Below are positions 23,601 to 57,359 of a stretch of 64,000 nucleotides of DNA, piece after piece. The stretch comes from a virus. Each line of letters opens with the position of its first letter. The stretch's first letter is position 1. Under the pieces are notes generated by a model that searched no databases, was not told the DNA's origin, and was given only the letters and a program-made list of their open reading frames with translations. The stretch lies in IMG/VR virus record IMGVR_UViG_3300017788_000011, positions 32,001 to 96,000 of that record. The stretch is one strand, 5' to 3'. Both the position numbers and the translations under genes were made by a program.

Positions 23601-26600
23601 CTGCCAACGGATTTGATATTACATCTATCAATGTTAATTCAAAATCAACATATTCAAATATAAAAACTTTTCCTTGAACTTTATACTGACCATCTGCTCT
23701 GGCTGCGCCAACTGCAATATATCTGCCGTCTTTGGAAATGTCAACGCTGGACCCGAACTTTTCATAATAATTAATTTCGTTGACATAATTGTAATTTGCA
23801 GTGGAAATTAAACCATCTCTAATTTTGTCCACAGAAATGGTTTCTGCTAATTGATATCCGCCAGTAGTTTTCTTGTATAGGAAAACTTTACCGGTTCCTT
23901 GTTTAATCTTGGCTACAATCTGTTCCCATTTTGAGTTATCAAACGATCCGGAAGGATATGTTATATCTTCACCTTCTTTTAACTTGTAAAATTTATTATT
24001 GTAAGAAACTTCTGCTTGATCCTGATAATTCGATTGTTCGCTGTAAACTCCTTGATAATTTTCTAAATTAAGTTGATCTGCTTCTGGTGCAGAAGCAACA
24101 ATGAGTTCAGCACTATCAGAAACAGCGAACGATGCACCAAACAAATCACCTGATTGAACTGATGCTACATTGTATCCAAGAGTAGTGGAATCATCAGTTA
24201 TGTCATCATGTACAGTAAGTGGCAAGTAGCCGGCAATATTTTCAAAGCCAGCGGGTTCCCAGTCGGCAACTTCAAACGAAGTTCCGTCACCTAATCTATC
24301 CTGCGTTGCTTGATAAACTTGATTATTGTAGTAAACGATATCGCCCTGGGAATAATCTATCAGTGGACTAAAGCCTCCGCGGAATTTAGAATTTCTTACT
24401 AACTTCCAATTAAAGGTACTGTCATCTCCGGATTCATCAAACTTAAATGTGTAAATTCTTCCTTGATTTTGATTAGCGCCTGGAGCATTGATCAACAATG
24501 AATATTCTCCGGTTTCTTCGCCGGCAAACTTTAATTCCGTGCCAAAGTATTCATTGTTATCCGGTTTAGGACTACAGAATGTAGCAGACAGGGCAAAGTT
24601 TCCTCTGTCATCTTTTTCATATATAGAAACATATCCCTGATGTTGCAAATATAGGCCTGGTCCTGGCACTGATTCATAGGCTTCAACAGGAATAACATTG
24701 GTTATTTCCCATTCAGTTAAATCTTCACCGGGCACAGTTGTAGACGATGCGCTTATAAACTTTTTAGATTTCCATAATAATTGATTATACGAAACTATTC
24801 TACCTGCGTTATAAGATTGTATTGGACTAAACTTTCCTCTGTAAAAAGATTTAAATCCTGAAGCATCAGGAGCACCAATAGCCAAGTATCTACCATCCGA
24901 AGATATAGCCACAGATTTACTCCATCCCGTAGGTACAGATGAATCTGCATAGGTATCTACTGGCAAAATTGTCTGAATTGAAATTAAAGGATCTCCGGCT
25001 CTTACTCTGAGATATAATCTTACCTCTTTGTCTACTGATCCGACAGCGATCAATGATGAATCCGGTGTTATCGAAAATCCTGCACCAAATCTTAGATTTT
25101 CTGTGCGTCTTTCAGGCACTAATTCTGAAGAAGTGAATACAGGTTTTCTGGTATACACTGCCCATTTGCCTGTGCCGTCGGAGTTTGCATAGAATTTTTC
25201 AGAATCAGTGAATTTATAATCAATTGTATTGTCATTAATAGAATCAATAGAATCTATTCGAGCAGATACAAGTTTAAACATAACGATCGAAGAACTATCT
25301 TCACTGAACGTAATATCTTTATAGACATCTAATCCTTTGAGATCTTCAAGTGTTGTTTCTAATACAATCTTATCAAGTTCTATAGATTTAATTTTATAAA
25401 ATAATTCGTATTCTGCAGGCACTGAATATAGAGCAATGTAATCGCCAACTGCAATATCTTTGATGTTGTCGCAGATAATTTCTATGGTTTTAGATTTAGT
25501 TGTTAATTGTTTTACTGTCAATGTTGATCGAGTATATCTATAGATATTCCAATAAGAATTAACAAAATTAGGAACAAAGTCTTCTTTAAAAATCCAGATC
25601 AAATCACCGTCTGTGAGATCAGACACAGACTGTGTTAATAAGTTTTCCTTGACGTAGGTGCTGATTTTTACATCGCTCTGTTGAACGTATCCAGTATCTC
25701 TTAAAATTATTTCATTGTCATCTACAGTTGGCCAAAGGTTGATGTCAGCATCGTCAGGTTTGATATACAATTGATCAAATTCTTGTCTATAAACAAAATC
25801 TTTGACAGTATTGTCGATAACACTTACTACTTCAAACGGCTGAGGATTAATTAAAAATTGTTTTTCATCTAACTGTATTTCAACTTCTTTAAATGCTTGG
25901 CTGGCACCGTACTGTCCAACACGTACACCCCAATCTTCATAAAATTCAAGGCTGTCTCTGTTAGACTGGGATACTGCATCAAAAAATTTAATTAAGGAAT
26001 TTTTGGTTCCCTTTTCAATAATATAACCCTGATAAAACTTGTATTGACTTACTGGACTTGGAATTATTTGATTTAAATAGTCCCTTGTTTGATACCCAAT
26101 AGTATGCTGTGCTAATTGTTGTTGTGCTTTATCGAAGTTTGTAGAGTCAAGGTCGTAAAAGTCTCTGAATTGATCTGCTTTGTAATCCCAATTAGGTAAT
26201 AACTGTGATTCTGGTTTACTATCTAAAATAAACCATTCATTGCTGTCAAACTCAGCCTTACCAGGATTAAACTTGGCTGCGGTATAATAGAATTGTTTGT
26301 ATTTTACAATGTCACCAACATTGTAATCATTATAAGGTGACCAGTCAACTATCTTGGCTTGGTCATAGACGAAGCCAGGACTGTCAAAACTTCCTATCCA
26401 GGGGTAGGTTGTATATGCAACAATTTTAATTCGTTCTTGTCTGAAACCAGGTTTTTGGTCAAAGAGGATATCATTAAATTCTGAAACATTATCAAATATA
26501 ACTACGTGTTCTTTTTGCACAAGGTGCAGAGTCGCACCGTAAATTCCATTGTTGGTATTAACCGTTGTTAGCGTAAACTCGTTACCGTCCCTGCCAGTTG

Positions 26601-29600
26601 ATATAGTTTCTGCATCAATTAACGTACCGTCTTGCTGCCTTAGGGAATATCCGTTAAAGCCATCTTGTACATTATCGACTACAGCATAAGGATAATTTAA
26701 TTTTAATTTCTGTGCGGCCGGGCTCAGCGCCAACAAACTACCTGCACCAAACCCCTGAGTAGTCCAGAACAAAAATTCTTGGCTGCTGGTTTTCCAGTTT
26801 TGTATTAAACCAAGATTGTTGTCGTACTTGTCAAAAATAAATCCCTTGCTTTCAAGATACGCACCGTAGCCTAAAAGAAAATCAACAACATCTTGAATAG
26901 TTTTTAAAACACTACCGTATGGTAACCTACTTACAGTGTCTTCAAATGCCGTTCGAATATAGGCAGTTTTACCGCCAACTATTGGTAACTCAGGAATGCG
27001 AACAAATTTATCTGTGTCAAAGGATGCGGTTGCAGTGTGAGTCACCTTGACTCGATAAAAAGTATTTTGATAAAGAACAATTTTTCCCACTACATATAAA
27101 TTATTAGCAGTCCACTCGCTGTAGCCTTCGCTGATTCCGCCAACTCTAATTACTCTGTCTTTGTCTAAAACGATAGGATTAAAATATTCAAATACTGGTC
27201 TTTCAAAGTTATATCCTCGAATAACATATCCGGCTGGTTGTTTTTCTACGATAACGCCGCTGTAATATAAGGTTTCGACTGGGGATCCGGTGTTTAAGAA
27301 CAACAGATAATTTTCTTCGGGCAGTGTTAACAATGATCCACTGTTAGGACTCTTGCTGTCAAGATAAATTTTAAATTTGTCTTTGTCCGAAAAACCTTCA
27401 ACTCTGTAACTTAGGTTGTTGGTTATTTCTTTTAAATCTTTTCTGTATCTCTCAATGACTGATTTTTGATCGCTGGTGATATAATCACAGACATAATTTA
27501 CCAATCCAGAACAAAATGACTTGGCAGTGTCGAACCAAGCAGTAGGAGTAACTATGTCGTTTAACTTAATTCGTATTCCTGAATCTTTATAGATAAACTG
27601 ATTGTTAAGATTTTTTATCTGTCTAACACGATCAAACAGTACTGAAAAACTTTCAGCAGGTCTTGCTACCACTACAGACTTAATAAATTGAAATGGATAA
27701 TCACTGCTTCTTCTCCATGCCGTTTCAACCGGGCCGATATCGCCAAATGCAAATCTTTCGTTGGCAGTTAAAATGTTGAAGTTACCCACAAGATTTGCAG
27801 ACATCGGATCTATTAGATTGCCTTCAGCATCTACAGGAATGTTAGACGAAAGTCCGGGTCTACGGAATCTCACATCGTATTGAACAGTTTTTCCGGGCTG
27901 TCTAACTGCACCTTCTTCAAGGTCTTGCCATAATATTAAGTTGTCACTGGTATAGGGGGCAGGTCCATAGACTGTTTCCCACCAATCGGGTTTAATAGAA
28001 AATCCAAGACACTCCCAAGGGTGTGTATGTGGTCTATCTGTATCAAATTTTAATTTGAAAATACCTCTCCAATATCCCGGCAGCAACGATCCATCGTTAT
28101 CTAACGACAGGGAATAATTATAGGTAAATCTATTTTCAAAATCGTAAAATGTATTTTCAGTGGGATCTACGTCGGTGAATGATACCCATTTATAAAACGC
28201 TGGGGATAATAAATTATCTATCACTGACTTTGATACTTTAGACGTTCTTGCTCCGTTGGGAATGTAATCAAAAATATTAAAAATTGTAGGATCGTAATTT
28301 ACTTTGATATTATTAAAAATTCTAAGTTCTAATTCTAATAATAACTGATCTCTTGCATCACCGTAGGCTCTTAATATACTACCGTCGTGGCCCTGAATAA
28401 CCGAAGATGGAGTTATATATGTGTTATCTGTAAAAATGTGAGGAACATATTTTGGATATAAACCGAGTTTAGTCGGAGTTGGCGGCACAAAAGAATTGTC
28501 TGTGCTTACATATTCAAAAAATTCTAAAATGTCTCCTATGGCCAAAGTTCCAGTTACATTTACAAATCCTTCTTCAGTAAATGTATAATCTTTTTCGTAG
28601 ATAAGTTGAGTGTCGTTCAAATAAACTAATACTGCCTTGTCCGATGCGGTGGTGTTTGAATAAGTGTCTGTCAACGGATACAATTGAACTCTATTATCTA
28701 CCACAGGAATAGTAATCTTATTTGCGGCTCCGTTGGGAATCATGTCGCTGAATCTAAACGGCATTGATTCTGTTTTATTCTTAATTAAGTTGTTTAATAT
28801 TTGATCAACACGATCTTTAACTGTACCGTCTAAGGCAAGACTTGATGCTTCTTGAATAAATGCTCGCTTAAACTTTTGATATTCTGATGAAGCATATTCA
28901 AGCGCACGAATAACATTTGCAGATTTATCACAGAGATGATACAAGGGTAAATTTAAAGGAATTGAGTGTTGTAAAAATCTGGTTCCGTATTTAGATATTG
29001 CGCCGAGGTCTCTTAGGTTGCTTATACCTGGATATGTGCCTTTAAAGGAAGATACATTTTCAACAATTGACTGCACATGATCAACTACTTCGCCAAGTGT
29101 AAATTTATCCAACGACTCGTTTAAAGGATTATGTTTTAAACTGTAGGGAGAATCATAATATCCAGAAATCTTAATACCGTTATCACTGTAGGCTTTGATT
29201 ACAAGACTGTTGCCAGAAGTTAGGTCTTGATTAAATCTTACAAATTTATAAACAGTGTCTGTTAAAATTTCATAGTTTGTTGAATCAATAAACTGGCCGT
29301 TAACAAATACTTTAATTGTTAAATCTAATTGGCTGCTGTCTTTGAAACAATCAATTTTAAAATCGTTTGTGGTGTCAACAACATCATATTGTTTTACCAC
29401 ATACTGATAAACAGAATTTTCATTTTTTATCCAACCAGTTTCATAGGTATAATCAGTTCTTGAACTGTTTATTTTTAAAAAGCCGGTGTTGGTAGAAACT
29501 GAGATGATTCGTTCTACATCTCTATAACTAACCGATTCGCTTTCAAGATCAAAGTTAAAGACTATGTCACCGACGTTTTCAATATTTTGGTAGGTCAAAG

Positions 29601-31410
29601 GAAAACCTAATTCGGCGTCGTTTGACCCTGTTCCGGCTTTGTAAGTAAAAATTTTATTACCAACAAATGTTGTACCTTCGTACTTTAATTCATTGCTAAA
29701 ACTATCCCCATCAATATCATACAAATCAAATAAGGGATTTTGATTAACTGCTGTCTTCTGTTGACTGTATACCCACTGTGTTCCATTATAATGCCACATT
29801 GAGCCTTTATATGCAGTGCCATAGTTTACCAGTACACACTCCCCTTCGCTGGGTTCGGTGTCTACTTCTTCTTTTAAGGTGATCTGTTTACTACCTTGTA
29901 GATTAACAAAATCAACTTTGAAAATTCTACCATTAACCCGTTTGTCTGTATCGGCAGCAAACAGCACACGCATGCCTTTTACTAACAGTACACTATCTAC
30001 GAAATATCCCTGAGATCCTTCAATAATTGAAAATATATCAGTAGTCACTGTGTCAATTAAATCTACATTCTGCTTGGCCTGTCGACCAAAATTCAATAAC
30101 TGTACGTTTGGTTTGAATTCTATAATAGGTCTAATAGCACGAGTAGTTAAATCGATATCTGCTGGCACTCCCAGTGCTTCATAGGCTTTGTTGATGGCAT
30201 CAATGTGAAACCATCGATTGTGTCGACTCCAGGGATTTTTATCAATACTTTGTCGAGATACAGTGATATAATCTTGCTTGTCTGCTAAGGTCAGTGCCTC
30301 TGAAAAAGGTAATTTGTCAAATGGTTCGTCATCGAACAACACAATTGATTCAGAACTAAATGTTCCGGTGATTTCAAGATCTGCTTCTGCAACAAGATTA
30401 ATTTTATCCCCTACACCTTCAACATACCAAAAGCCTGTTGAATATTTTTCAGGTGTAACATTTCCAACAAATCTAACTTTCATACCGTTGGTTAGATCTA
30501 CGCCGTCGGCTGTTCTATATGTTTTCTTTCCTAAAATATCTTGATCAAGATCGAGGAATGAATTCTCAACAATATCGCTGATTTTAAAAACGCCGCCAAC
30601 GTCCACGTCCTTGGTGCTCATAAAATACAGTACGGATTCTGATCCTGCGTTGGGAGTAAATTCTATAACTCCTTGCTCGATTCCTTCAAACACTGTGTTA
30701 GTTTGATCTCCATCATAACTGATGAATCCATCCTGATCTAATGTTCGAACAGATTTAATTATTATAGGTTCCCCTGGAGAATTTACTTCGAATCTGTAGG
30801 TCTGGCCGCGATATAATCGTATTGTTGGATTTCTGGTTACTCCGTTTGGTGTTAGCACCACAGCCTTGTTGTCGCCATCGTCGACTAATGTCAATGTAAA
30901 AGTCGAAACAATTTCACGTTGCTGTCCAGCCACAGTATACACCGGAGGTCCATAGGGCAGCCAATAATAATTTCTGTAGTTAACAAATTTGTCCCAGTCG
31001 ATCTTTGGATCCCACGAATAAAATTCTTGTGCGTTGACTTTATTTTGATCTTTTTCTGCTGATCCAAAGTATTTTAACTGGTTAAGATAATCAATATAAT
31101 CTTTAAAAAAGGTTACATTATCGAACTGATCTGTGACTACTGTAGAGGAATCAAACTGGTAAAATTCTCTGTCGCTGTTGATCGCAGGAACATAGGTATC
31201 GTTGACCTTATAACTTTTTCCTACTTTTCTTCCGACATACCCGTTGCGAGATTTTACACCGCCTTTGCTGATTAATTGGTCAAGTGTAGCGTCTAAAAAC
31301 TTTTTGTTTGGTAAGGTTCTATAAAATCGAGGCAATAAGTCGCTTGACTTATTTTTTTTGCTACCTTCTCCAGGTAGATTAATTTCGTTTTGTTCGTCGC
31401 TGTATGCCAT
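17677..31410 (-). CDS. Giant (4577 aa) baseplate wedge-like virion protein
   Basis: Uninterrupted 13.7 kb ORF directly after the gp6-like gene. Contains FG-GAP-like repeats, W/Y-rich carbohydrate-binding-like modules and NPGSGY repeats. Confidence 0.75.
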   Translation of the reverse strand: MAYSDEQNEINLPGEGSKKNKSSDLLPRFYRTLPNKKFLDATLDQLISKGGVKSRNGYVGRKVGKSYKVNDTYVPAINSDREFYQFDSSTVVTDQFDNVTFFKDYIDYLNQLKYFGSAEKDQNKVNAQEFYSWDPKIDWDKFVNYRNYYWLPYGPPVYTVAGQQREIVSTFTLTLVDDGDNKAVVLTPNGVTRNPTIRLYRGQTYRFEVNSPGEPIIIKSVRTLDQDGFISYDGDQTNTVFEGIEQGVIEFTPNAGSESVLYFMSTKDVDVGGVFKISDIVENSFLDLDQDILGKKTYRTADGVDLTNGMKVRFVGNVTPEKYSTGFWYVEGVGDKINLVAEADLEITGTFSSESIVLFDDEPFDKLPFSEALTLADKQDYITVSRQSIDKNPWSRHNRWFHIDAINKAYEALGVPADIDLTTRAIRPIIEFKPNVQLLNFGRQAKQNVDLIDTVTTDIFSIIEGSQGYFVDSVLLVKGMRVLFAADTDKRVNGRIFKVDFVNLQGSKQITLKEEVDTEPSEGECVLVNYGTAYKGSMWHYNGTQWVYSQQKTAVNQNPLFDLYDIDGDSFSNELKYEGTTFVGNKIFTYKAGTGSNDAELGFPLTYQNIENVGDIVFNFDLESESVSYRDVERIISVSTNTGFLKINSSRTDYTYETGWIKNENSVYQYVVKQYDVVDTTNDFKIDCFKDSSQLDLTIKVFVNGQFIDSTNYEILTDTVYKFVRFNQDLTSGNSLVIKAYSDNGIKISGYYDSPYSLKHNPLNESLDKFTLGEVVDHVQSIVENVSSFKGTYPGISNLRDLGAISKYGTRFLQHSIPLNLPLYHLCDKSANVIRALEYASSEYQKFKRAFIQEASSLALDGTVKDRVDQILNNLIKNKTESMPFRFSDMIPNGAANKITIPVVDNRVQLYPLTDTYSNTTASDKAVLVYLNDTQLIYEKDYTFTEEGFVNVTGTLAIGDILEFFEYVSTDNSFVPPTPTKLGLYPKYVPHIFTDNTYITPSSVIQGHDGSILRAYGDARDQLLLELELRIFNNIKVNYDPTIFNIFDYIPNGARTSKVSKSVIDNLLSPAFYKWVSFTDVDPTENTFYDFENRFTYNYSLSLDNDGSLLPGYWRGIFKLKFDTDRPHTHPWECLGFSIKPDWWETVYGPAPYTSDNLILWQDLEEGAVRQPGKTVQYDVRFRRPGLSSNIPVDAEGNLIDPMSANLVGNFNILTANERFAFGDIGPVETAWRRSSDYPFQFIKSVVVARPAESFSVLFDRVRQIKNLNNQFIYKDSGIRIKLNDIVTPTAWFDTAKSFCSGLVNYVCDYITSDQKSVIERYRKDLKEITNNLSYRVEGFSDKDKFKIYLDSKSPNSGSLLTLPEENYLLFLNTGSPVETLYYSGVIVEKQPAGYVIRGYNFERPVFEYFNPIVLDKDRVIRVGGISEGYSEWTANNLYVVGKIVLYQNTFYRVKVTHTATASFDTDKFVRIPELPIVGGKTAYIRTAFEDTVSRLPYGSVLKTIQDVVDFLLGYGAYLESKGFIFDKYDNNLGLIQNWKTSSQEFLFWTTQGFGAGSLLALSPAAQKLKLNYPYAVVDNVQDGFNGYSLRQQDGTLIDAETISTGRDGNEFTLTTVNTNNGIYGATLHLVQKEHVVIFDNVSEFNDILFDQKPGFRQERIKIVAYTTYPWIGSFDSPGFVYDQAKIVDWSPYNDYNVGDIVKYKQFYYTAAKFNPGKAEFDSNEWFILDSKPESQLLPNWDYKADQFRDFYDLDSTNFDKAQQQLAQHTIGYQTRDYLNQIIPSPVSQYKFYQGYIIEKGTKNSLIKFFDAVSQSNRDSLEFYEDWGVRVGQYGASQAFKEVEIQLDEKQFLINPQPFEVVSVIDNTVKDFVYRQEFDQLYIKPDDADINLWPTVDDNEIILRDTGYVQQSDVKISTYVKENLLTQSVSDLTDGDLIWIFKEDFVPNFVNSYWNIYRYTRSTLTVKQLTTKSKTIEIICDNIKDIAVGDYIALYSVPAEYELFYKIKSIELDKIVLETTLEDLKGLDVYKDITFSEDSSSIVMFKLVSARIDSIDSINDNTIDYKFTDSEKFYANSDGTGKWAVYTRKPVFTSSELVPERRTENLRFGAGFSITPDSSLIAVGSVDKEVRLYLRVRAGDPLISIQTILPVDTYADSSVPTGWSKSVAISSDGRYLAIGAPDASGFKSFYRGKFSPIQSYNAGRIVSYNQLLWKSKKFISASSTTVPGEDLTEWEITNVIPVEAYESVPGPGLYLQHQGYVSIYEKDDRGNFALSATFCSPKPDNNEYFGTELKFAGEETGEYSLLINAPGANQNQGRIYTFKFDESGDDSTFNWKLVRNSKFRGGFSPLIDYSQGDIVYYNNQVYQATQDRLGDGTSFEVADWEPAGFENIAGYLPLTVHDDITDDSTTLGYNVASVQSGDLFGASFAVSDSAELIVASAPEADQLNLENYQGVYSEQSNYQDQAEVSYNNKFYKLKEGEDITYPSGSFDNSKWEQIVAKIKQGTGKVFLYKKTTGGYQLAETISVDKIRDGLISTANYNYVNEINYYEKFGSSVDISKDGRYIAVGAARADGQYKVQGKVFIFEYVDFELTLIDVISNPLAEPNENFGYRVKFNNDATSVAITAKFGDQYVYTTFDKYGNLLEDSNDLYNSIYATDTQSEANARPTTFDRQSLNFKTTTKDAGRVYVFDRYADRFIYGESFDVPESANSDLGEKIAFTRDTVIFNAKYFNIDNRRVGKLLFFERPKNKKTYEVTSRQSPVVNSEKFVSAFLYNTVTNQKVRNIDFVDVLRGKLPGIAEQELAYKTYFDPAVYDVGTTDQQVDTTVAWDVKQVGKLWWDLTNARFYNPYQGDLLYRANVWNRLVDGASIDIYEWVESPYLPSVWDSLADTEEGLTEGVSGLSRYGDAVYSVEQRYDVISQSFRPTYYFWVKNKVLVPSVNGRTLSALNVANLIADPRAQGYKFINFIAPNAVSFINCGDILIDKQINANIRYWGIDKTDLNIHNQYQLITEGVNNFEIPKYIESKWFDSLVGLDQNNNIVPDPDLPKKLRYGILNVPRQGMFINRIEATKQFVERLNRVLINKLITDNFNLERLQQFDPVPVEKDGKYDVAVDSYEELRFVGTSNVETAKFAVELRNGRFFRITILNPGSGYKIAPRIDIVDEGGSGAVLKTEIDVQGRVTDVIIRRRGKNYTNPTLTARPFTVLVKIDSTTTGKWSLYTWDKENRLWNRIQTQRFDVTKFWSYADWYADGYNQFTKPDYQVNNTYELTFLDTNIDQVVRVKSVGSGGWLLLKKYQESESFDYTQSYQVVGRQSGTIQFNTNLYDFADGNIGYGSSLYDVEGYDLFAAIELRIILETIRDEILISDLRKEYNNLFFTSVRYVLSEQTLVDWVFKTSLVTAIHNLGELDQPPTYKTSSLEAYQGYVEEVKPFRTQIREYISLYESFDNTQSAVTDFDLPSYVENKSAQPVDVKVSSTGELISSSNVILEYPWRSWFENYGFYIKDIVITDGGSGYISAPIVRFEGGFGQGATAKAYISSGRVFKIEITNPGSGYVSAPTIILDGGLREDGVSARVSAVIENDVIRSNTIGLKFDRITSSYDFVEVNKVEEFSGFGNRVQFALIWPIDLTQDSYTVKINGIAVLKTDYAVFNKTDSSGNYTKKYGVVQFEIAPATGATIEVSYKIDLNFMSAADRIYHAYQTAPGKLGKDLGQLMKGVDYGGVEVTSIPLTLLGGFDSDAWESEQWDDYDETFDDYIVTVDDSTYEFTLPYTPAAGVVLNIYKNGQRLDDPNFGTEDQTNIEAVMSSIVCDGITKTFVLPNLTDNPPLEINNGDEIIFRKTTSDGSRLPSETSYDTQLSGGDLAYNTASGFSPSDISLDGDGFVTPNTSHAPEEIVPGHVFDTLSIKVQDNVSVANSKIILKTINADGVSFRFLIGQKPTTENSVMVKLDNDLLKLGQDYNINFYDSTITFLTVPPEGSIISIWSFDFSGLSIYDNNFFIGDGSTREFITQAPYTDTQNVLVIVDGVQYNAEIFETDSSYATEGLLGIRFIVLPAANSVLKYVVYDGPDQEISIASLQEIRYVPPLMDYLLTNPMGESLPYDGKILVKKGNTVLKGPDSYEFTITADNYSYRIESQKYAPFSFDPTTISVFVNGDKKDYGIDFSVDFGLNRVTMNVTAVSVGDIVTIIINKDLDYEVTGTNPGNVYLKIKNSSLLAYGDTIEVLSFYNHNSQNILRYRNTFVTSTIVQETVQYYLFSQFKGGLVKLQRAVTDISAAWIMLNRTLLTPNVDYILLDSITVKLNPTIQIDQTDTVDVMQFDDRKSSTIPISFVKFKDILNRNSYYRLNYKFTQLASDLRPFDRVIEVIDGAVLDEPSRAKNKPGVIEIAGERVEYFVKNGNFLSQIRRGTLGTGVKDVHLSGQVINNIGISETVPYGDNTEVYEFVSDGSTLEFTLPFVPVKTAIADWYRDTIPLTHGQCNQVDVFAAGRHLRKSPLVRYDKAVGPDFESDTIQVEAEFSVDGVNYGTISAPEGRIRLTSAIPAGTKVVVTRKVGQMWQNSGQQLTESITKPALFLRRGG

Positions 31411-40867: not shown

Positions 40868-41716
40868 ATGTCTACAAAAGTAAACTATCTTAACAACAAA
40901 GATCTATTAGACGAAATACACAAATCAAAGAACAGTTACAGTTCGTACACAAAACCAGAATATCATCAGTACGATATTATTCTGCCCAGTTTGGAAAAAA
41001 TTAACATTCGTACTGTGGCAGAGGCCAAACGTAATCGTGCAAAAAGGCTTTCGCAACAGGCCTACGAAGCGAGAAAAGCCGCAGGGGAAAAAATCAAAGC
41101 CGCAGAATGCGAAATTGACTATAAAAAGATTATAAAAACAGATTTGGTTTTTAGAATCATGACTTTTGATCATATTCCAGGCAATATTGGTAGAAAAAAG
41201 AATCCAAAGAGTGTAGCAGACAAAAAGGAAAAGGTAAATTTTCCACCGTTTCAGCACTGGAAGTTTGATAACAAAGACGAATTAATCTGCGTGGGCAAAA
41301 GCCATTGGAAAGGTGATCTTAAAAAAGGTCAGTTTAGCAAAGACCACGGACAGATTAGTAACAATCTTGCACGGATGTTTATCAAACTCTGCGAACGATA
41401 TGCTACCAGGGGTAACGTTCGAGGCTATACCTACAACGACGAAATGCGTGGACAGGCTATCCTGCAATTAACACAGATAGGTTTACAATTTGACGAATCA
41501 AAATCAAATAATCCCTTTGCGTATTTTACCGCGGCAGTGACTAATTCGTTTGTGCGTGTGATCAATATCGAAAAGAAGATGCAGAATATTCGAGATGACA
41601 TGCTGGAAATCAACAACATGGCGCCAAGTTGGACACGTATTGCCAATGCCGAACATGAAAATGCCATGGCTCGAGAGGCAGCACGTCGAGACCAAACTGA
41701 TAGCGAAGAAGTTTAA
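40868..41716 (+). CDS. gp55: Late-transcription sigma factor, T4 gp55-like
   Basis: NYLNNKDL, GYTYNDEM and FDESKSNNPFAYFT...NSFVRVINIEKK; sits upstream of gp47-gp46 as in T4-like phages. Confidence 0.85.
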   Translation: MSTKVNYLNNKDLLDEIHKSKNSYSSYTKPEYHQYDIILPSLEKINIRTVAEAKRNRAKRLSQQAYEARKAAGEKIKAAECEIDYKKIIKTDLVFRIMTFDHIPGNIGRKKNPKSVADKKEKVNFPPFQHWKFDNKDELICVGKSHWKGDLKKGQFSKDHGQISNNLARMFIKLCERYATRGNVRGYTYNDEMRGQAILQLTQIGLQFDESKSNNPFAYFTAAVTNSFVRVINIEKKMQNIRDDMLEINNMAPSWTRIANAEHENAMAREAARRDQTDSEEV

Positions 41717-41736: not shown

Positions 41737-42750
41737 ATGAGTCAACTTTTTAAAAAAGTAGCCTGTTTTACAGATATACATTACGGATTGAAATCTAACT
41801 CTGCTGTTCATAATCAAGACTGCGATGAGTTCGTAGATTGGTTCATTGCCAACGCCAAGCGTGAGGGTTGTGAAACTGGGATGTTTCTTGGTGATTGGCA
41901 CCACAATCGTAATTCATTGAATATCACAACCATGGACTATAGTCTTCGGGCTTTGGAAAAACTTGGCAAAGCCTTTGACCAATTCTTTTTCTTTCCGGGC
42001 AATCACGACCTATATTACAAAGACAAACGTGACATTCACAGCGTTGAGTTTGGCAAATATGTTCCAGGAATCGAAGTAGTTCGGGAAGTACTCACAGATG
42101 GAGAAGTTACCATGTGTCCCTGGTTAGTAGGGGATGAGTGGAAAAAGATGGAAAAATTAAACAGTCGGTATGTGTTTGGTCACTTTGAACTACCGCTGTT
42201 TATGATGAATGCCATGGTTCAAATGCCAGACCACGGTGAGTTACAGGCACATCATTTTAAAAATCCTGAATATGTATTTTCAGGACACTTCCATAAACGA
42301 CAGGCCAAAGAAAATATTGTGTACATTGGCAATGCCTTTCCGCACAATTATGCAGATACCTGGGACGATGATCGAGGAATGATGATTCTCGAATGGGGAG
42401 GTAAACCTAAATACCTCAATTGGGATCACTGTCCTAAATTTAAAACTGTTAAACTCAGTGAATTAATTGACAAGCAACAGGAACTGTGTTTACCTAAAAC
42501 ACATTTCAGAGTAAGTTTAGACATTGATGTCAGTTTTGAAGAAGCCAGTTATATCAAAGAAACTTTTATGAATCAGTATGAAATCAGAGAATTGACTCTG
42601 ATTCCAGAAAAGAAAGAAGTAGAAATCAACACAGACCTCAGTGTTGAACAGTTTGAAAGTGTGGATCAAATTGTGTCTTCACAGATTCTCAGCATCGAAT
42701 CCGACAATTATGATCCCAAAGTTTTGTTAAACATTTACAATAACCTATGA
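41737..42750 (+). CDS. gp47: Recombination nuclease subunit, gp47 (Mre11/SbcD-like)
   Basis: Metallophosphoesterase motifs DIHYG, GDWHH, GNHD, GHFE and SGHFH. Confidence 0.92.
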   Translation: MSQLFKKVACFTDIHYGLKSNSAVHNQDCDEFVDWFIANAKREGCETGMFLGDWHHNRNSLNITTMDYSLRALEKLGKAFDQFFFFPGNHDLYYKDKRDIHSVEFGKYVPGIEVVREVLTDGEVTMCPWLVGDEWKKMEKLNSRYVFGHFELPLFMMNAMVQMPDHGELQAHHFKNPEYVFSGHFHKRQAKENIVYIGNAFPHNYADTWDDDRGMMILEWGGKPKYLNWDHCPKFKTVKLSELIDKQQELCLPKTHFRVSLDIDVSFEEASYIKETFMNQYEIRELTLIPEKKEVEINTDLSVEQFESVDQIVSSQILSIESDNYDPKVLLNIYNNL

Positions 42751-44525
42751 TAAAAATAAAAGATCTTACAGTAAAGAATTTTATGAGCGTGGGTAATCAG
42801 ACCCAGGCTGTGGATTTTGGCAAAGAACAGTTGACCTTGGTGTTAGGTGAAAATCTCGATATGGGCGGTGATGACAACGGTTCGCGCAACGGCACAGGTA
42901 AAACAACTATTATCAATGCTCTGAGTTATGCACTTTACGGCAATGCCCTGACTAACATTAAAAAAGACAATCTTATCAACAAAATCAACGGTAAGAACAT
43001 GTTGGTAACACTACATTTCGAAACCAACGGCACTGACTATAGAATCGAGCGGGGTCGTAAACCCAACGTCTTTAAATTCTTTATCGACGGTCAGGAAAGT
43101 ATAGCAGAAGATCAAGACGAAAGCCAAGGCGACAGCCGAGAAACACAAAAAGACCTCGATACTCTGTTGGGCATGAGCCACGATATGTTTAAGCACATCA
43201 TTGCTCTTAACACCTACACTGAGCCTTTTCTATCTATGAAGGCCAACGAACAGCGGGACATCATTGAACAACTGCTGGGGATTACTCTGCTGTCAGAAAA
43301 ATCAGAGTTGTTGAAAGAACAGATTAGGCTGACCAAAGAACAGATTGCCAGCGAATCTGCAAAAATCGAAGCAATTAAAAATGCCAATGTTAAAATTCAA
43401 GAAACCATTGACAGTCTCGAAACCAAACAAAGTGCTTGGCGAACACAGCAAAAAGCCGACTGCGATAAGATCGATGCTGTGATCAAAGAACTACAAAACG
43501 TAGACATTGATCACGAATTAACGCAACATGAAAAATTAAAAGTCTATGACGAACAAGCGGCCAAAATTAAAAGTCTCAACAAAGAAAAGTCTACATTTGA
43601 AACTGCGCTGATACAGGCAGATAAAGCAGTTAAAAAATACGAAAAAGAAGTATTACAGTTATCAAACAATACCTGTCCGGCCTGCGAACAAAATTTACAA
43701 GATCACAGGCACACCGAAATGATCTCTGCGGCTAACAAAAATTTAGATGATGCAAAAAAATATGCTGAAACTATTCAAACAGAATTGTCAGCAGTGATCA
43801 AAGAGTTAGAAGATATTGGCGATATCAACGGTCGACCAGACACATTCTACGAAACTATCAACGAAGCATTGAAGCATCAAAATAATTTAAACACATTGAT
43901 AACACAACTTGATGAGAAATCCAAGGCCACAGATCCTTATCAAGAGCAGATCGACGAATTAAAAAACACTGCTCTACAAGAATTTGACTGGGAAGTTGTC
44001 AACACTCTGACAACCTTGAAAGAACATCAAGAGTTCTTGCTGAAGTTATTGACCAGTAAGGACAGTTTTATTCGTAAGAAAATCATCGATCAAAACTTGG
44101 CCTATCTCAACAATAGACTTACTTACTATCTTGACAAGGTAGGATTACCACACACAGTGGTATTTCAAAATGATTTAAATGTGGAAATTACACAGTTAGG
44201 GCAGGATCTTGATTTTGATAATCTCTCCAGAGGAGAACGCAATCGTTTGATTCTTGGCCTATCATGGGCATTCCGTGATGTATGGGAAAGCCTATATCAG
44301 AACATTAATTTGCTGTTCATTGACGAACTGATTGACAGCGGTATGGACGCCAGCGGTGTTGAAAACTGTCTGAGCATTCTTAAGAAAATGGGTAGAGAAC
44401 GTAAGAAAAACATTTATTTGATCAGTCACAAGGATGAATTGATTGGTCGTATGAACAATGTTTTGCGAGTAATTAAAGAAAACGGATTTACCAGTTATTC
44501 AACAGATCTTGAAATAAGTGAATAA
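42747..44525 (+). CDS. gp46: Recombination ATPase subunit, gp46 (Rad50/SbcC-like)
   Basis: Walker A NGTGKTT, coiled coil with CPAC zinc hook, LSRGE signature, Walker B FIDE and ISH. Confidence 0.92.
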   Translation: MIKIKDLTVKNFMSVGNQTQAVDFGKEQLTLVLGENLDMGGDDNGSRNGTGKTTIINALSYALYGNALTNIKKDNLINKINGKNMLVTLHFETNGTDYRIERGRKPNVFKFFIDGQESIAEDQDESQGDSRETQKDLDTLLGMSHDMFKHIIALNTYTEPFLSMKANEQRDIIEQLLGITLLSEKSELLKEQIRLTKEQIASESAKIEAIKNANVKIQETIDSLETKQSAWRTQQKADCDKIDAVIKELQNVDIDHELTQHEKLKVYDEQAAKIKSLNKEKSTFETALIQADKAVKKYEKEVLQLSNNTCPACEQNLQDHRHTEMISAANKNLDDAKKYAETIQTELSAVIKELEDIGDINGRPDTFYETINEALKHQNNLNTLITQLDEKSKATDPYQEQIDELKNTALQEFDWEVVNTLTTLKEHQEFLLKLLTSKDSFIRKKIIDQNLAYLNNRLTYYLDKVGLPHTVVFQNDLNVEITQLGQDLDFDNLSRGERNRLILGLSWAFRDVWESLYQNINLLFIDELIDSGMDASGVENCLSILKKMGRERKKNIYLISHKDELIGRMNNVLRVIKENGFTSYSTDLEISE

Positions 44526-44751
44526 TAGAGAAACAGAATTTGATGAGAAATTGATCAGGGCCTTTCAGGAATACCTAAGATACAGCGATAGGTGGATCCG
44601 CAGAGGCTCTGGAGGTGCGGCCATAAAAGCCAGAAATTATCTCCTTGAAATACACAAAATGACCAAACAAAGGCGCAAAGAAATTTACGATCAACGGGCA
44701 GAACTTAAAATTCAAAAACAACAGGCAAAACAAAATCCACAAGATACATAA
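44518..44751 (+). CDS. Small basic helical protein, possibly nucleic-acid binding
   Basis: 77 aa, GTG start, Lys/Arg-rich AAIKARNYL.EI.K..KQRRKEI. Confidence 0.55.
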   Translation: MNNRETEFDEKLIRAFQEYLRYSDRWIRRGSGGAAIKARNYLLEIHKMTKQRRKEIYDQRAELKIQKQQAKQNPQDT

Positions 44752-44754
44752 TGC

Positions 44755-45189
44755 GTGTCGTGGCTTTATCAAAATCAAATAGTTGAAGAAATACCCGAAG
44801 GCTATATTGGCTTCGTTTATCTCGTCACCAATCTAAAAACCGGGCAAAAGTACATAGGCAAGAAACTTGCACAATTCAAACGTACTAAACCACCACTCAA
44901 AGGCAAAAAACTTAAACGTAGATCTGTAGTAGAAAGCGATTGGCGCGACTACTGGGGTTCTTCTGATAGGTTAAACGCAGACGTTCAACAATTAGGCCCG
45001 GAAAATTTTACCAGAGAAATACTGTATTACTGTACCAGCAAGGCAGAAATGAGTTATATAGAAGCTCGCGAACAGTTTGATCGTCGTGTACTGGAATCCG
45101 ATGAATACTACAACGGAATCATCAATTGTAGAATAGGCGGATCAGAAAAACTCAGAAAAGCCTTGGCAGAACATAGGCAAAAAACATAG
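44755..45189 (+). CDS. GIY-YIG (Seg-like) endonuclease, catalytic domain only
   Basis: GFVY...KYIGKK, YWGSS, FTREIL, conserved E in YIEAREQ and YYN; 144 aa with no C-terminal DNA-binding repeats. Confidence 0.8.
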   Translation: MSWLYQNQIVEEIPEGYIGFVYLVTNLKTGQKYIGKKLAQFKRTKPPLKGKKLKRRSVVESDWRDYWGSSDRLNADVQQLGPENFTREILYYCTSKAEMSYIEAREQFDRRVLESDEYYNGIINCRIGGSEKLRKALAEHRQKT

Positions 45190-45560
45190 CAACGTGGTTT
45201 GGTCGGGGTAGCTCGACTCACCTTGAGGCAGCCGAGGTAAGGCTCGTAGCCGTCAGATACTGGTGTGTTGCACGGAAGAAGTTAACGTAAGGCTTCAAAA
45301 GATTGGGCTCTGTGAAAAAGATACAACCCATGGGTAAGTAGTTTCGCTTGATAGGGACTGTCTGCCTTCCGCGACTATTCGCGAATCTGGAGTAGGGGGT
45401 TTCAGGGTTGCCGCCTCCGCACGTAGCACATTTTATACAATATCGTTGAGTATTGTACAGAATATGTTACATAATCTCCTTTATCAAGAGTGGCTGTTGT
45501 ACTCGGATAATGCCATTTATTTGCCCGGAAACGGGCGAATTGTGACCATAATATCTGGAT
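45190..45560 (+). ncRNA. Candidate large structured RNA (family not recognised)
   Basis: ORF-free and visibly GC-richer than its flanks. Many local hairpins with G-U pairs, a GAAA tetraloop (45519-45540), nested long-range pairings and a possible pseudoknot (45347-45356 with 45479-45488). Confidence 0.55.
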
Positions 45561-45568
45561 AATCTTAA

Positions 45569-45651
45569 AGTGCTTCGCACTAAAAATAAATCAAAGAAAA
45601 GAAAAAATGTGTTTGAGCGCAAGCGAAAACACAGACGAACGTAGTTCGTCT
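45569..45651. other. Cluster of three short hairpins
   Basis: AGTGC-ttc-GCACT (45569-45581); TGTGTTT...AAACACA (45608-45633); AGACGAAC-gta-GTTCGTCT (45633-45651). Confidence 0.6.
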
Positions 45652-45687
45652 TCCGATAAATATCATATCAACAAAAAGATTTCAACT

Positions 45688-46662
45688 ATGCTACTTAGAG
45701 AATTATTCGAAGCACCAGGCGTAATATTAGGTCCTGATGGAAAACCTTTTGACACAGATAATCAAAAGCCTATATCAAAGCCTACTTCTGATCCCAAAGA
45801 ATTAGAAAAGCAGGTGTTAGAAAAAAACAAAACATCTGGTTTTGCCAAGGCAAAATCAATAGGTGGCACCATGGGTGCTGGCATGTCATGGCTCAGCAGA
45901 GCAGGGCTGGCTGTGTTATTTTACGATTATTGGACCACAGTCAGTGCCGCAGAAGAATCTCTAAAAAATAATGAAATCACTCAACAAAACTTCGATGCCA
46001 TACGTCAGTGGAAAATTGGCGAGCTAATATTAGCATTCTCTTCAAAATATCTTGTAAAGATTCCCGCCAATTTGTTTTTTAACTTACCAATAAAAACCGC
46101 AGGATTAGCAGTCAAAGGCAGTGCTGCCGTAATAGCCACAGCACCCAGTTTAATATCTGCAACTGCCACAGGCACTGGCAAAGGTCTGGGACTAATTGGG
46201 AAAATATTTGGAAAAACTCGCGTAGGTCGAGGACTACAAGTTGTAGGCAAGGGAGCAGAAAAAACCGGCGAATGGTTGGGCATAGGTGGTAATAAAATTA
46301 AGTTAGCCGGGGATCGAGCATTTACCATAGCACAGAGCGGGGATGTTCTTGTTGATTTTGCCTCTGAAAGTTTTAGAGCTTGGCTTACTATTGTGATACA
46401 AACTGATGCAGGTAAAAAGTTCTTCTCTGAAACATTGCCTGAAGTAATACAGTATCCAGGTAGATGGTATGAAATATTTGAAACTATTGCTGTTAATCTT
46501 TTTGACATATATGTCAAAGACAGTGTAGAACAAGATAAAAAAGAATCTGCGGCAAAACCAGAAGCAGAACCAGGAAAGCCAGCATCGCCGCCAGCCAAAG
46601 ATTCTGGAGTTACAAACTTGCCAGGTGTTCCTGGAGATTTTACTGGAACAATTAAGTTTTAA
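45688..46662 (+). CDS. Hypothetical late protein, possibly an internal/ejected virion protein
   Basis: Start re-assigned to ATG 45688 (MLLRELFE) downstream of TAAATA 45657-45662; Gly/Ala-rich hydrophobic segments. Confidence 0.6.
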   Translation: MLLRELFEAPGVILGPDGKPFDTDNQKPISKPTSDPKELEKQVLEKNKTSGFAKAKSIGGTMGAGMSWLSRAGLAVLFYDYWTTVSAAEESLKNNEITQQNFDAIRQWKIGELILAFSSKYLVKIPANLFFNLPIKTAGLAVKGSAAVIATAPSLISATATGTGKGLGLIGKIFGKTRVGRGLQVVGKGAEKTGEWLGIGGNKIKLAGDRAFTIAQSGDVLVDFASESFRAWLTIVIQTDAGKKFFSETLPEVIQYPGRWYEIFETIAVNLFDIYVKDSVEQDKKESAAKPEAEPGKPASPPAKDSGVTNLPGVPGDFTGTIKF

Positions 46663-56865: not shown

Positions 56866-56972
56866 TTGAGATATTGATAAATACTTTGTCTAATAATGAG
56901 CGCCGCAATGTCTGCGGACTTATGCAGTAACCCACTGCGTAGACCTAAAACGTCAACATAAGGAGAAAACAA

Positions 56973-57359
56973 ATGGGACGTCCATTGAGAAAAGATAGAT
57001 TAGGTACCGATGTCATCGGTACATTTGCCAGCAACACAGGTATTCGTGTAGAGTTTTATGATGCATCATTGAGAACAGACGGTGTTATTATCAAACAACG
57101 CGGTGCAAAAACATTTGTAGTTTGTCAAGTAGGCAACATTGGCACAACTACATCATATACTACCGCAGTATTAAAGAATGGTGCACCAAGTGCTGCCAAC
57201 GAAATGCGTTTGTTTGGGTACAATACTTCTAACTCAGGCGCAGTAGTTAATATTGCAAAAATTACCAAGCGTGTTGCTACAGATTTCAGCGGCAATCGTT
57301 ACACATGGAACTTAGAAAACGATTCATCTAACGACTACATTGTATTAACAGCAATCTAA
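56973..57359 (+). CDS. Putative virion structural protein
   Basis: MGRPL N-terminus and IIKQRGAKTF; strong SD with a late promoter and structured leader. Confidence 0.65.
   Translation: MGRPLRKDRLGTDVIGTFASNTGIRVEFYDASLRTDGVIIKQRGAKTFVVCQVGNIGTTTSYTTAVLKNGAPSAANEMRLFGYNTSNSGAVVNIAKITKRVATDFSGNRYTWNLENDSSNDYIVLTAI

What the first reader, a model, noticed from the sequence alone, without database searches (positions are those of the whole stretch)
44755..45560. Minimal GIY-YIG nuclease immediately followed by a ~360-nt folded RNA-like element: candidate nuclease-RNA system
Seen: the 144-aa GIY-YIG ORF has only a catalytic domain, and its stop is followed by the longest ORF-free stretch in an otherwise tightly packed window. 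Nested long-range pairings are GTGGTT 45194-99/GACCAT 45544-49, GGCA 45227-30/TGCC 45511-14, CCGAG 45232-36/CTCGG 45502-06, GTAGCCG 45246-52/TGGCTGT 45491-97 and CAGAT 45254-58/ATCTG 45385-89. Local hairpins lie at 45202-17, 45278-96, 45304-30, 45370-83, 45395-418, 45423-70 and 45519-40 (GAAA loop). CTTGATAGGG 45347-56/CTTTATCAAG 45479-88 crosses these and would be a pseudoknot. Many pairs are G-U, which favours a + strand RNA. Known: Seg-type homing endonucleases usually carry C-terminal DNA-binding domains, and nuclease-linked RNAs exist for other folds (HEARO/omegaRNA with HNH/RuvC proteins). Inference: the RNA may partner, scaffold or guide the nuclease, or be an independent large phage ncRNA that is simply syntenic with it.
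Basis: partly seen in the sequence, partly recalled or inferred. Interest (0 to 1): 0.85.

Follow-up and report, generated by a model that had tools for sequence, protein, structure and literature searches.

The report
Twin-box phage RNA beside nuclease gene
The gene-free stretch behind a small nuclease gene of this uncultured T4-like water phage encodes a real, knotted non-coding RNA that carries the same short box twice; it looks like an RNA gene in its own right, not the nuclease's guide, and its job is unknown.

Summary
A 144-aa GIY-YIG-only protein (44755-45189) is followed by a 498-nt ORF-free gap. The gap encodes a conserved + strand structured RNA of about 390 nt (45190-45582), followed by a second small conserved element (45609-45651).

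Support comes from 34 close relatives: 72 base pairs are 92.3% paired and covariation beats every control. His five nested long-range helices do not.

Rfam has no match in this window. Sister loci carry Polynucleobacter-1 (RF01718) as a different 5' domain on the same 3' core.

The core holds two 11-nt boxes (45501-11, 45553-63). Their variable letters are identical in 152 of 152 distinct homologous loci. I found no partner.

Linkage to the nuclease is tight inside this phage clade but not obligatory:
- 86 of 96 RNA loci have GIY-YIG directly upstream.
- 6 have other ORFs in between.
- 3 have a PDDEXK nuclease instead.
- 1 has neither.
- 4 of 4 isolate phages have the nuclease without the RNA.

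Best reading: an independent ncRNA at the 3' end of the early operon. This scan found the same RNA on other genomes before. Function remains unknown.

The parts
44755..45189 (+). GIY-YIG-only nuclease gene (144 aa, GTG start)
   Evidence: Pfam PF19835 SegE_GIY-YIG 3e-35 over residues 3-123. PHROG 447 5e-39. PADLOC 'HEase' 5e-07. No solved structure by sequence.
44684..44711 (+). sigma-70-like promoter match upstream of the nuclease gene; possible start of a nuclease-plus-RNA transcript
   Evidence: Consensus scan, 9 of 12 matches. This is a pattern match only and was not tested.
45190..45582 (+). structured non-coding RNA, type-A variant of the twin-box family; the 5' limit is uncertain and could be near 45173
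   Evidence: Homologs in over 150 uncultured phage loci. 72-pair model 92.3% paired, covariation 0.455 against 0.176 in shuffles, 0 of 500 shuffles reach it.
45191..45269 (+). type-A-specific 5' domain: closing helix 45191-93/45267-69, hairpin about 45199-45218, helix 45219-22/45262-65 enclosing hairpin 45227-45254
   Evidence: Helices 1-5. This domain is replaced by Polynucleobacter-1 (RF01718) in type-B loci.
45279..45330 (+). two covarying hairpins: 45279-83/45291-94, and 45304-07/45327-30 with 45311-13/45323-25 and an A-rich loop
   Evidence: Helices 6-8, 89-100% paired.
45332..45367 (+). long hairpin whose loop (45347-53) forms the 5' strand of the pseudoknot
   Evidence: Helix 9: 14 pairs, 10 with changes on both sides. 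for the pseudoknot.
45370..45383 (+). small hairpin (4-bp stem in this window)
   Evidence: Compensatory changes visible. Helix 10.
45389..45479 (+). helix 45389-92/45476-79 enclosing the conserved hairpin 45395-99/45414-18 and the variable expansion hairpin 45421-45472
   Evidence: Helices 11-14. Helix 11 is 100% paired and all 4 pairs change on both sides.
45482..45488 (+). 3' strand of the pseudoknot; pairs with 45347-53
   Evidence: 116 of 118 cognate pairs score 6 or more, against 36% of non-cognate pairs.
45501..45511 (+). box 1
   Evidence: Variable letters 45505, 45506 and 45509 always equal those of box 2.
45519..45540 (+). GNRA-loop hairpin between the boxes, followed by a conserved GUGAC word at 45542-46
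   Evidence: Helix 15: 9 pairs, 4 with changes on both sides.
45553..45563 (+). box 2
   Evidence: As box 1. The boxes lie 47-67 nt apart across the family, with no codon periodicity.
45569..45581 (+). short G+C hairpin with UUCG-type loop at the RNA's 3' end, followed by an A-rich tract; not a canonical intrinsic terminator
   Evidence: Conserved position. The terminator scan did not call it.
45609..45651 (+). second conserved element: a stem with a tandem G-A-type internal loop around a 2-bp GNRA mini-hairpin (45609-32), then an 8-bp covarying hairpin (45633-51)
   Evidence: These are the strongest covarying pairs of the whole region (45636/45648, 45639/45645 and others). Present in types A, B and C. 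One search scores 45651-33 as terminator-like on the minus strand.
45656..45662 (+). ATAAATA word resembling the T4-type late promoter (consensus recalled, not tested), before the probable start of the next gene at 45688
   Evidence: Conserved column block.

Best explanation
The gap encodes a stand-alone structured non-coding RNA. It is a member of a large, uncatalogued 'twin-box' RNA family of uncultured aquatic T4-like phages. It is probably made as the 3' end of the early gp47-gp46-nuclease transcript and may then be processed out (inferred). A pseudoknotted scaffold, shown by covariation, carries two short boxes of identical sequence. I found no covarying helix that holds them. I infer that the boxes are two equivalent docking sites for one common partner, either a nucleic acid or a dimeric protein, so the RNA would act as a decoy or scaffold. 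The GIY-YIG gene would be a long-standing neighbour, possibly a homing-type nuclease that settled beside a conserved RNA gene, and not a protein that needs this RNA. Shown: the RNA, its fold, the box identity and the distribution. Inferred: co-transcription, trans action and the nature of the partner.
For: Conservation and fold: 92.3% paired; covariation 0.455 against 0.176 in shuffles, 0 of 500 reach it; slid controls at most 0.106; pseudoknot. Strand: abundant G-U pairs. Modular build: 84 non-redundant type-B, 34 type-A and 3 single sequences share the 3' core, and a type C does too. The type-B 5' domain is Rfam Polynucleobacter-1 in 8 of 18 loci scanned. Box identity: three variable positions are identical in 121 of 121 non-redundant and 152 of 152 distinct true loci; the 7 chance pattern hits that passed the script's filter all differ. 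There are 8 haplotypes, and at least 43 haplotype changes on a tree built without the box columns. No conserved ORF ends at the boxes and there is no 3-nt periodicity. Independence from the nuclease: the RNA begins about 250-335 nt before box 1, right after the stop of whatever ORF precedes it. That ORF is GIY-YIG in 86 of 96 loci. Other ORFs lie between GIY-YIG and the RNA in 6 of 96, PDDEXK_15 takes its place in 3 of 96, and 1 of 96 has neither. The nuclease family sits in four other contexts without the RNA in 4 of 4 isolate genomes, while the same model found 11 of 11 held-out positives.
Against: There is no expression data: no RNA run holds the stretch. No partner for the boxes was found within the RNA or within about 5 kb of flank (cognate complement 0.73 per locus against 0.53 for other haplotypes). 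Inside the clade, linkage to a small nuclease is very tight: 95 of 96 RNA loci have one within about 2 kb upstream, and 58 of 59 nuclease loci have the RNA. The replacement by a nuclease of another fold can also be read as 'a nuclease is wanted here'. No promoter or terminator of the RNA's own was found. Single-sequence folding is only marginally better than shuffles. The count of haplotype changes depends on a quick tree, and recombination may inflate it.
Confidence: 0.68

Rival explanations
1. Nuclease-RNA ribonucleoprotein. The DNA-binding-domain-less GIY-YIG enzyme uses the RNA as a scaffold or guide, and the two fast-changing boxes act as recognition segments.
For: The nuclease has only a catalytic domain. 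Linkage inside the clade is tight: 58 of 59 and 92 of 96. The boxes change often while the scaffold stays, as guide segments do. A different small nuclease (PDDEXK_15) occupies the same place in 3 loci.
Against: 4 of 4 isolate phages keep the nuclease without the RNA. Unrelated ORFs of 238-356 aa sit between nuclease and RNA in 6 loci, and one locus has no nuclease. A PDDEXK fold is unlikely to use a scaffold evolved for GIY-YIG. No target complementary to the boxes is enriched in the flanks. I recall no RNA-guided GIY-YIG enzyme, and none turned up in the searches. GIY-YIG proteins 97% identical go with different box haplotypes, 9 pairs; this is only weak evidence, because no identical proteins were available.
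Confidence: 0.1
2. Homing-endonuclease neighbourhood. The small nucleases (GIY-YIG, PDDEXK) are free-standing homing-type genes that target the DNA of the conserved RNA gene in rival phages and therefore sit next to it. Box variation would partly reflect escape from cleavage. This reading is compatible with the best explanation for the RNA itself.
For: Two unrelated nuclease folds occupy the same slot. The nuclease family lies in four different contexts in isolates. PADLOC and PHROG profiles named 'homing endonuclease' match weakly. The box letters turn over fast. From memory: T4 SegB lies in, and cuts, the tRNA gene region.
Against: The nuclease is nearly fixed in the clade (92 of 96) and is not sporadic as selfish genes usually are. 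It lacks the DNA-binding domain of Seg proteins. Escape from cleavage does not explain why the two boxes must be identical to each other.
Confidence: 0.15
3. Purely cis-acting 3' element. The fold protects the early operon's mRNA from 3' exonucleases, or insulates early from late transcription, and has no trans function.
For: It always abuts the last stop codon of the + strand operon and lies just before a late-promoter-like word. It ends in a stable hairpin.
Against: About 390 nt with a pseudoknot, GNRA loops and strictly identical twin boxes is far more than protection needs. Exchangeable 5' domains suggest a functional RNA. No canonical terminator was called.
Confidence: 0.1
4. DNA-level element: two iteron-like direct repeats flanking an inverted repeat, serving as a replication origin or a recombination or protein-binding site (compare note e1-6146679 on this window).
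For: Repeats kept identical to each other are typical of protein-bound iterons (recalled). An A-rich tract and small hairpins lie at 45582-45651.
Against: Compensatory changes with strand-specific G-U pairs and a pseudoknot are RNA signatures. The minus strand folds worse.
Confidence: 0.04

Closest known systems
Polynucleobacter-1 RNA motif (Rfam RF01718; Weinberg et al. 2010, PMC2864571; I saw only its row in the paper's table)
   Same: In sister (type-B) loci it occupies the same place: the first 140 nt or so after the nuclease stop codon, at 62-108 bits in 8 of 18 loci scanned. There it is followed by the same twin-box 3' core as in this window.
   Different: This window has no match to it even at E up to 10. 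Its 5' domain has another architecture. The Rfam model covers 141 nt and not the roughly 250-nt shared core, the pseudoknot or the boxes. The paper lists it as a possible cis-regulatory motif of Burkholderiales and fresh water. All 10 true hits in bacterial assemblies lie on MAG contigs, and those with enough upstream DNA carry phage gp46 and the nuclease.
GOLLD and ROOL RNAs (large ornate RNAs often on phages or prophages; PMC12286853, search listing and abstract only)
   Same: Large, intricately folded, phage-borne RNAs known only from sequence, with no known function.
   Different: No Rfam match to either. This RNA is shorter, about 390 nt. Nothing here tests whether it forms oligomers. Twin identical boxes are not a feature I know from them (recalled).
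Seg-type free-standing GIY-YIG homing endonucleases of T4 (SegE and others; knowledge recalled)
   Same: The same catalytic domain family (PF19835). Found in a T4-like phage, between conserved genes, and in different places in different phages.
   Different: 144 aa with no C-terminal DNA-binding domain. Nearly fixed in its clade. Cleavage was not tested.
Guide RNAs of mobile-element nucleases (omega RNA/HEARO with IscB/TnpB; PMC13565253, search listing only)
   Same: A structured RNA encoded next to a small nuclease gene, with short variable segments on a conserved scaffold.
   Different: No Rfam HEARO or omega-type match. The nuclease fold is different. The RNA persists with other or no nucleases, and the nuclease persists without the RNA. 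No target was found.
Type III toxin-antitoxin RNAs (ToxI-like repeat arrays; recalled)
   Same: RNA with directly repeated units kept identical within a locus, encoded beside a nuclease gene.
   Different: Only 11-14 nt are repeated, not whole units. The RNA lies downstream, not upstream. The protein is a DNA-nuclease family and gives no PADLOC toxin hit.

Membership tests
Polynucleobacter-1 RNA (RF01718) | Score at or above the Rfam gathering threshold (37 bits) for the covariance model | tested here: not met
   No match in the window at gathering or at E up to 10 over 44400-46000. Met in 8 of 18 sister loci.
Twin-box phage RNA (name from earlier notes of this scan; uncatalogued) | Shared 3' core: long hairpin whose loop pairs with a 3' strand, conserved CCGCC hairpin, two boxes around a GNRA hairpin | tested here: met
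   Model R1 scores the window at 103.5 bits; the window was in the training set, and 11 of 11 held-out loci score 83-157 bits. Helices, pseudoknot.
Twin-box phage RNA | Variable letters of box 1 and box 2 are identical | tested here: met
   Window: the same 7-letter word at 45505-11 and 45557-63. Family: 152 of 152.
RAGATH-12 RNA (RF03149) | Gathering score of 75 bits | tested here: not met
   16.7 bits, E = 2.6 at 45339-45409. It does not recur in a type-A2 or a type-C member.
tmRNA / tRNA | tRNA-like domain and tag frame detectable by ARAGORN or Rfam | tested here: not met
   0 genes found in the window. No Rfam tmRNA match.
Group I / group II intron | Ribozyme core recognisable, and the element interrupts a gene | tested here: not met
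   No Rfam intron match at E up to 10. The flanking ORFs are separate genes, and the downstream one is preceded by a late-promoter-like word and varies from about 200 to 700 aa between loci.
omega RNA / HEARO-type guide RNA | Adjacent IscB/TnpB-type nuclease and a matching RNA model | tested here: not met
   The neighbour is GIY-YIG. No Rfam match.
Seg-type GIY-YIG homing endonuclease | GIY-YIG catalytic domain | tested here: met
   PF19835 3e-35, full profile 1-123.
Seg-type GIY-YIG homing endonuclease | C-terminal DNA-binding domain | tested here: not met
   144 aa, with the catalytic domain ending at residue 123 and no second Pfam domain.
Seg-type GIY-YIG homing endonuclease | Site-specific cleavage and biased inheritance in mixed infection | not testable with these tools
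   Needs experiments.

The most novel reading that the evidence does not exclude
The two boxes are programmable recognition segments. The RNA would dock twice onto one nucleic-acid sequence that differs between phages or hosts, and would recruit or block a protein there (possibly the adjacent small nuclease). That would be a new kind of RNA-directed system in T4-like phages. The absolute identity of the boxes would then follow because both must read the same target.
Probability: 0.1. Interest if true: 0.9.

Novelty: new variant of a known kind. Interest (0 to 1): 0.6.

Why it matters
Large structured RNAs of unknown function are rare, and past examples have led to new biochemistry. This one is common in uncultured lake, estuary and marine T4-like phages: more than 150 distinct loci were seen here. 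It shows that the Rfam motif Polynucleobacter-1 is only one exchangeable 5' domain of a much larger phage RNA. It also carries an unusual signal: two boxes whose letters change often yet never differ from each other. Ordinary base-pair covariation does not explain that, so the signal points to a specific, testable interaction.

Tried and rejected
Known RNA families. Rfam gave nothing in the gap at gathering threshold. At E up to 10 it gave only weak chance-level hits. RAGATH-12 was rejected because it does not recur in relatives. ARAGORN found nothing.

Cultured phages. blastn of the RNA against 50,697 phage records gave no match.

Downstream protein. No relatives were found in IMG/VR by this method, and there were no Pfam, PHROG or PADLOC hits.

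Translational readings of the boxes. The boxes can be read as a codon followed by UAA or UGA, which recalled programmed bypassing. I rejected this: the open frames upstream have medians of 6 and 16 codons, the spacing of 47-67 nt has no periodicity (mod 3: 53, 35, 33), and there is no conserved start codon.

Direct box 1-box 2 pairing. RNAalifold suggested it on type B. I rejected it because one pair is C-A in 36 of 84 sequences and the rarer haplotypes cannot pair.

Helices from the box flanks. Cognate and non-cognate pairings barely differ, and column counts are at most 82% paired with little covariation.

Partner for the boxes. No complementary covarying column exists inside the RNA. The complement is not clearly enriched in about 5 kb of flank. 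The box word is not enriched in the window (14 found, 9.4 expected) or in the 131-kb record.

Coupling of box haplotype to nuclease sequence. This stayed inconclusive: 9 pairs of proteins at least 97% identical go with different boxes, but no identical proteins were available.

Expression. No RNA holder is listed for the stretch.

Pseudoknot counting with the tool. This failed because MAFFT and the model alignment put the strands in shifted registers, so I used my own script instead. Model R1 took an RNAalifold structure of only 9 pairs and therefore works almost as a sequence profile. It misses type C.

Literature. Searches for GIY-YIG with noncoding or structured RNA in phages, and for Polynucleobacter-1, returned no description of this RNA. 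Passages of PMC9964418 concern other Rfam motifs. Supplements were not opened and might list more on Polynucleobacter-1.

Full report
**Setting.** The window is part of a T4-like phage record. It carries a late sigma factor gp55 homolog (40868-41716), gp47 (41737-42750), gp46 (42747-44525), a basic 77-aa ORF (44518-44751), the 144-aa GIY-YIG ORF (44755-45189), and then baseplate genes on the other strand. The record has 131,485 bases and an estimated completeness of 37%. By the nuclease protein, the closest cultured relative is Methylophilales phage Melnitz at 62% identity.

**The observation.**
- Pfam SegE_GIY-YIG covers residues 3-123 of 144 (3e-35), so the protein is a bare catalytic domain.
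- The following ORF-free stretch is the longest in the window.
- The listed ORF starting at 45607 is probably too long. Relatives align on the ATG at 45688, behind a conserved ATAAATA word. The gap is therefore 498 nt.
- G+C rises to 0.50-0.54 across 45150-45449, against 0.32-0.41 beside it.
- Folding of the single sequence is only marginally better than shuffles: z = -1.98 on the + strand and -1.51 on the minus strand. The case therefore rests on comparison with relatives.

**Relatives.** A scan of IMG/VR with the nuclease protein gave 590 relatives, of which the best 80 were kept. Nearly all with enough DNA show a gap of 450-520 nt after the gene.
- blastn of the window's gap hits 37 of the 80 loci.
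- A profile built from the closest relatives hits 41 loci.
- After removing near-duplicates there were 121 sequences.
- They fall into two types by their 5' halves: 84 type B and 34 type A, which includes the window, plus 3 singles.
- A third type, C, was found later.

**Fold.** I used an alignment of the 34 type-A sequences and took a 72-pair structure from RNAalifold after removing four doubtful helices.
- 92.3% of cells are paired, against 75.6% in shuffles.
- The covariation score is 0.455 against 0.176, and 0 of 500 shuffles reach it.
- All slid controls score at most 0.106.
- 47 pairs change on both sides.

The seventh, 45423-70, is a variable expansion hairpin whose base helix covaries. 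His crossing pairing is real in the form of a pseudoknot: loop 45347-53 pairs with 45482-88. Relatives use 54 different strand sequences for it. 116 of 118 cognate pairs reach a score of 6, against 36% of mismatched partners.

His five nested long-range helices fail. They are 54.1% paired against 55.2% in shuffles, and 474 of 500 shuffles do as well. The many G-U pairs fix the RNA on the + strand.

A second small element at 45609-51 covaries even more strongly. It lies between the RNA's terminal hairpin and the late-promoter-like word.

**What is known.**
- Rfam has nothing in the window's gap.
- In type-B loci the first 140 nt or so after the stop codon are Polynucleobacter-1 (RF01718), at 62-108 bits in 8 of 18 loci scanned.
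- That catalogued motif is therefore one exchangeable 5' domain of a larger RNA. The window carries a different 5' domain on the same core.
- In the paper library the motif appears only as a table row in Weinberg et al. 2010.
- In 185,579 species genomes the pattern hit 36 places, and 10 are true homologs. All 10 lie on MAG contigs, and those with enough upstream DNA also carry the nuclease and gp46. They look like binned phage DNA.

**Twin boxes.** The core holds two 11-nt boxes, 45501-11 and 45553-63. They are alike except for a CUC/UCU swap.
- Three variable positions are identical between the boxes in 121 of 121 non-redundant sequences.
- The same holds in 152 of 152 distinct true loci. 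The 7 chance pattern hits in bacterial genomes that passed the script's filter all differ, which shows that the search pattern did not impose identity.
- There are eight haplotypes, and type C adds more, again identical between the boxes.
- In three loci (L074, L076, L078) the seventh letter of the 7-letter word differs between the boxes.
- On a quick tree built without the box columns, the haplotype changes at least 43 times. Tree error and recombination may inflate this number.
- The letter before each box also tends to be the same.

I found no complementary partner inside the RNA and no helix formed by the flanks. There is no reading frame and no clear enrichment of the complement in the flanks. 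This signal is unexplained. Earlier notes of this scan on other genomes report the same phenomenon and coined the name 'twin-box'.

**RNA and nuclease.** Inside the clade the two travel together.
- 58 of 59 nuclease-selected loci with at least 600 nt downstream have the RNA.
- Of 96 RNA-selected loci with at least 900 nt upstream, 86 have GIY-YIG directly before the RNA.
- 6 have GIY-YIG followed by one or two other ORFs, then the RNA.
- 3 have a PDDEXK_15 nuclease instead.
- 1 has neither.

In every case the RNA starts right after the stop codon of the last ORF. That fits a 3'-terminal element of the operon and not a partner of one particular protein.

Outside the clade, Melnitz, P-HM1, S-SRM01 and ACP17 each carry the nuclease homolog in a different context with no gap behind it. 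A covariance model of the core finds nothing in these four whole genomes, while it finds 11 of 11 held-out positives.

**Reading.** The best-supported explanation is a stand-alone ncRNA made at the end of the early transcript, which presents two equivalent boxes to one partner. The nuclease is a neighbour, perhaps of the homing type. A ribonucleoprotein or guide role remains possible at about one in ten. No expression data could be had.

Noticed in passing
window 56902-56975 (+): A freshwater-2 RNA (Rfam RF02980, 57.6 bits against a gathering score of 49.9) lies between two + strand ORFs. It is the only Rfam gathering-level hit in the window.
   Followed up: no
window 44518-44751 (+): A basic 77-aa ORF overlaps the gp46 stop. 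It has no Pfam, PHROG or PADLOC family, yet it is weakly conserved (25-44% identity) between gp46 and the nuclease in 22 of the 120 RNA-selected loci. It could be a small nucleic-acid-binding protein.
   Followed up: partly
window 45609-45651 (+): A second conserved element follows the RNA: a stem with a tandem G-A-type internal loop and a 2-bp GNRA mini-hairpin, then an 8-bp hairpin with the strongest covariation of the region. The scan scores the second hairpin as terminator-like on the minus strand. Another first-reader note (e1-6146679) reads it as a DNA signal.
   Followed up: partly
loci L009, L011, L017, L020, L025, L027, L028, L030, L031, L036, L040, L044, L048, L049, L052: 15 of 80 IMG/VR contigs end within 150 nt after the nuclease stop codon. 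Metagenome assemblies seem to break inside the RNA gene. A likely cause is a conserved core flanked by variable sequence in co-occurring strains.
   Followed up: no
loci L091, L120, L162: A PDDEXK_15 'phage putative endonuclease' (168-171 aa, E 1e-22 to 1e-24) replaces the GIY-YIG gene in front of the RNA. In L091 a radical-SAM/SPASM protein and an unknown 335-aa ORF are also present.
   Followed up: partly
window 17677-31410 (-): A single ORF of 4577 aa, next to one of 1149 aa, in the structural region. The record is 131 kb at an estimated 37% completeness, which suggests a very large phage genome.
   Followed up: no
window 45688-46662 (+) and the equivalent ORFs in related loci: The gene after the RNA has no detectable family. 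Its length varies from about 200 to 700 aa between related loci.
   Followed up: no
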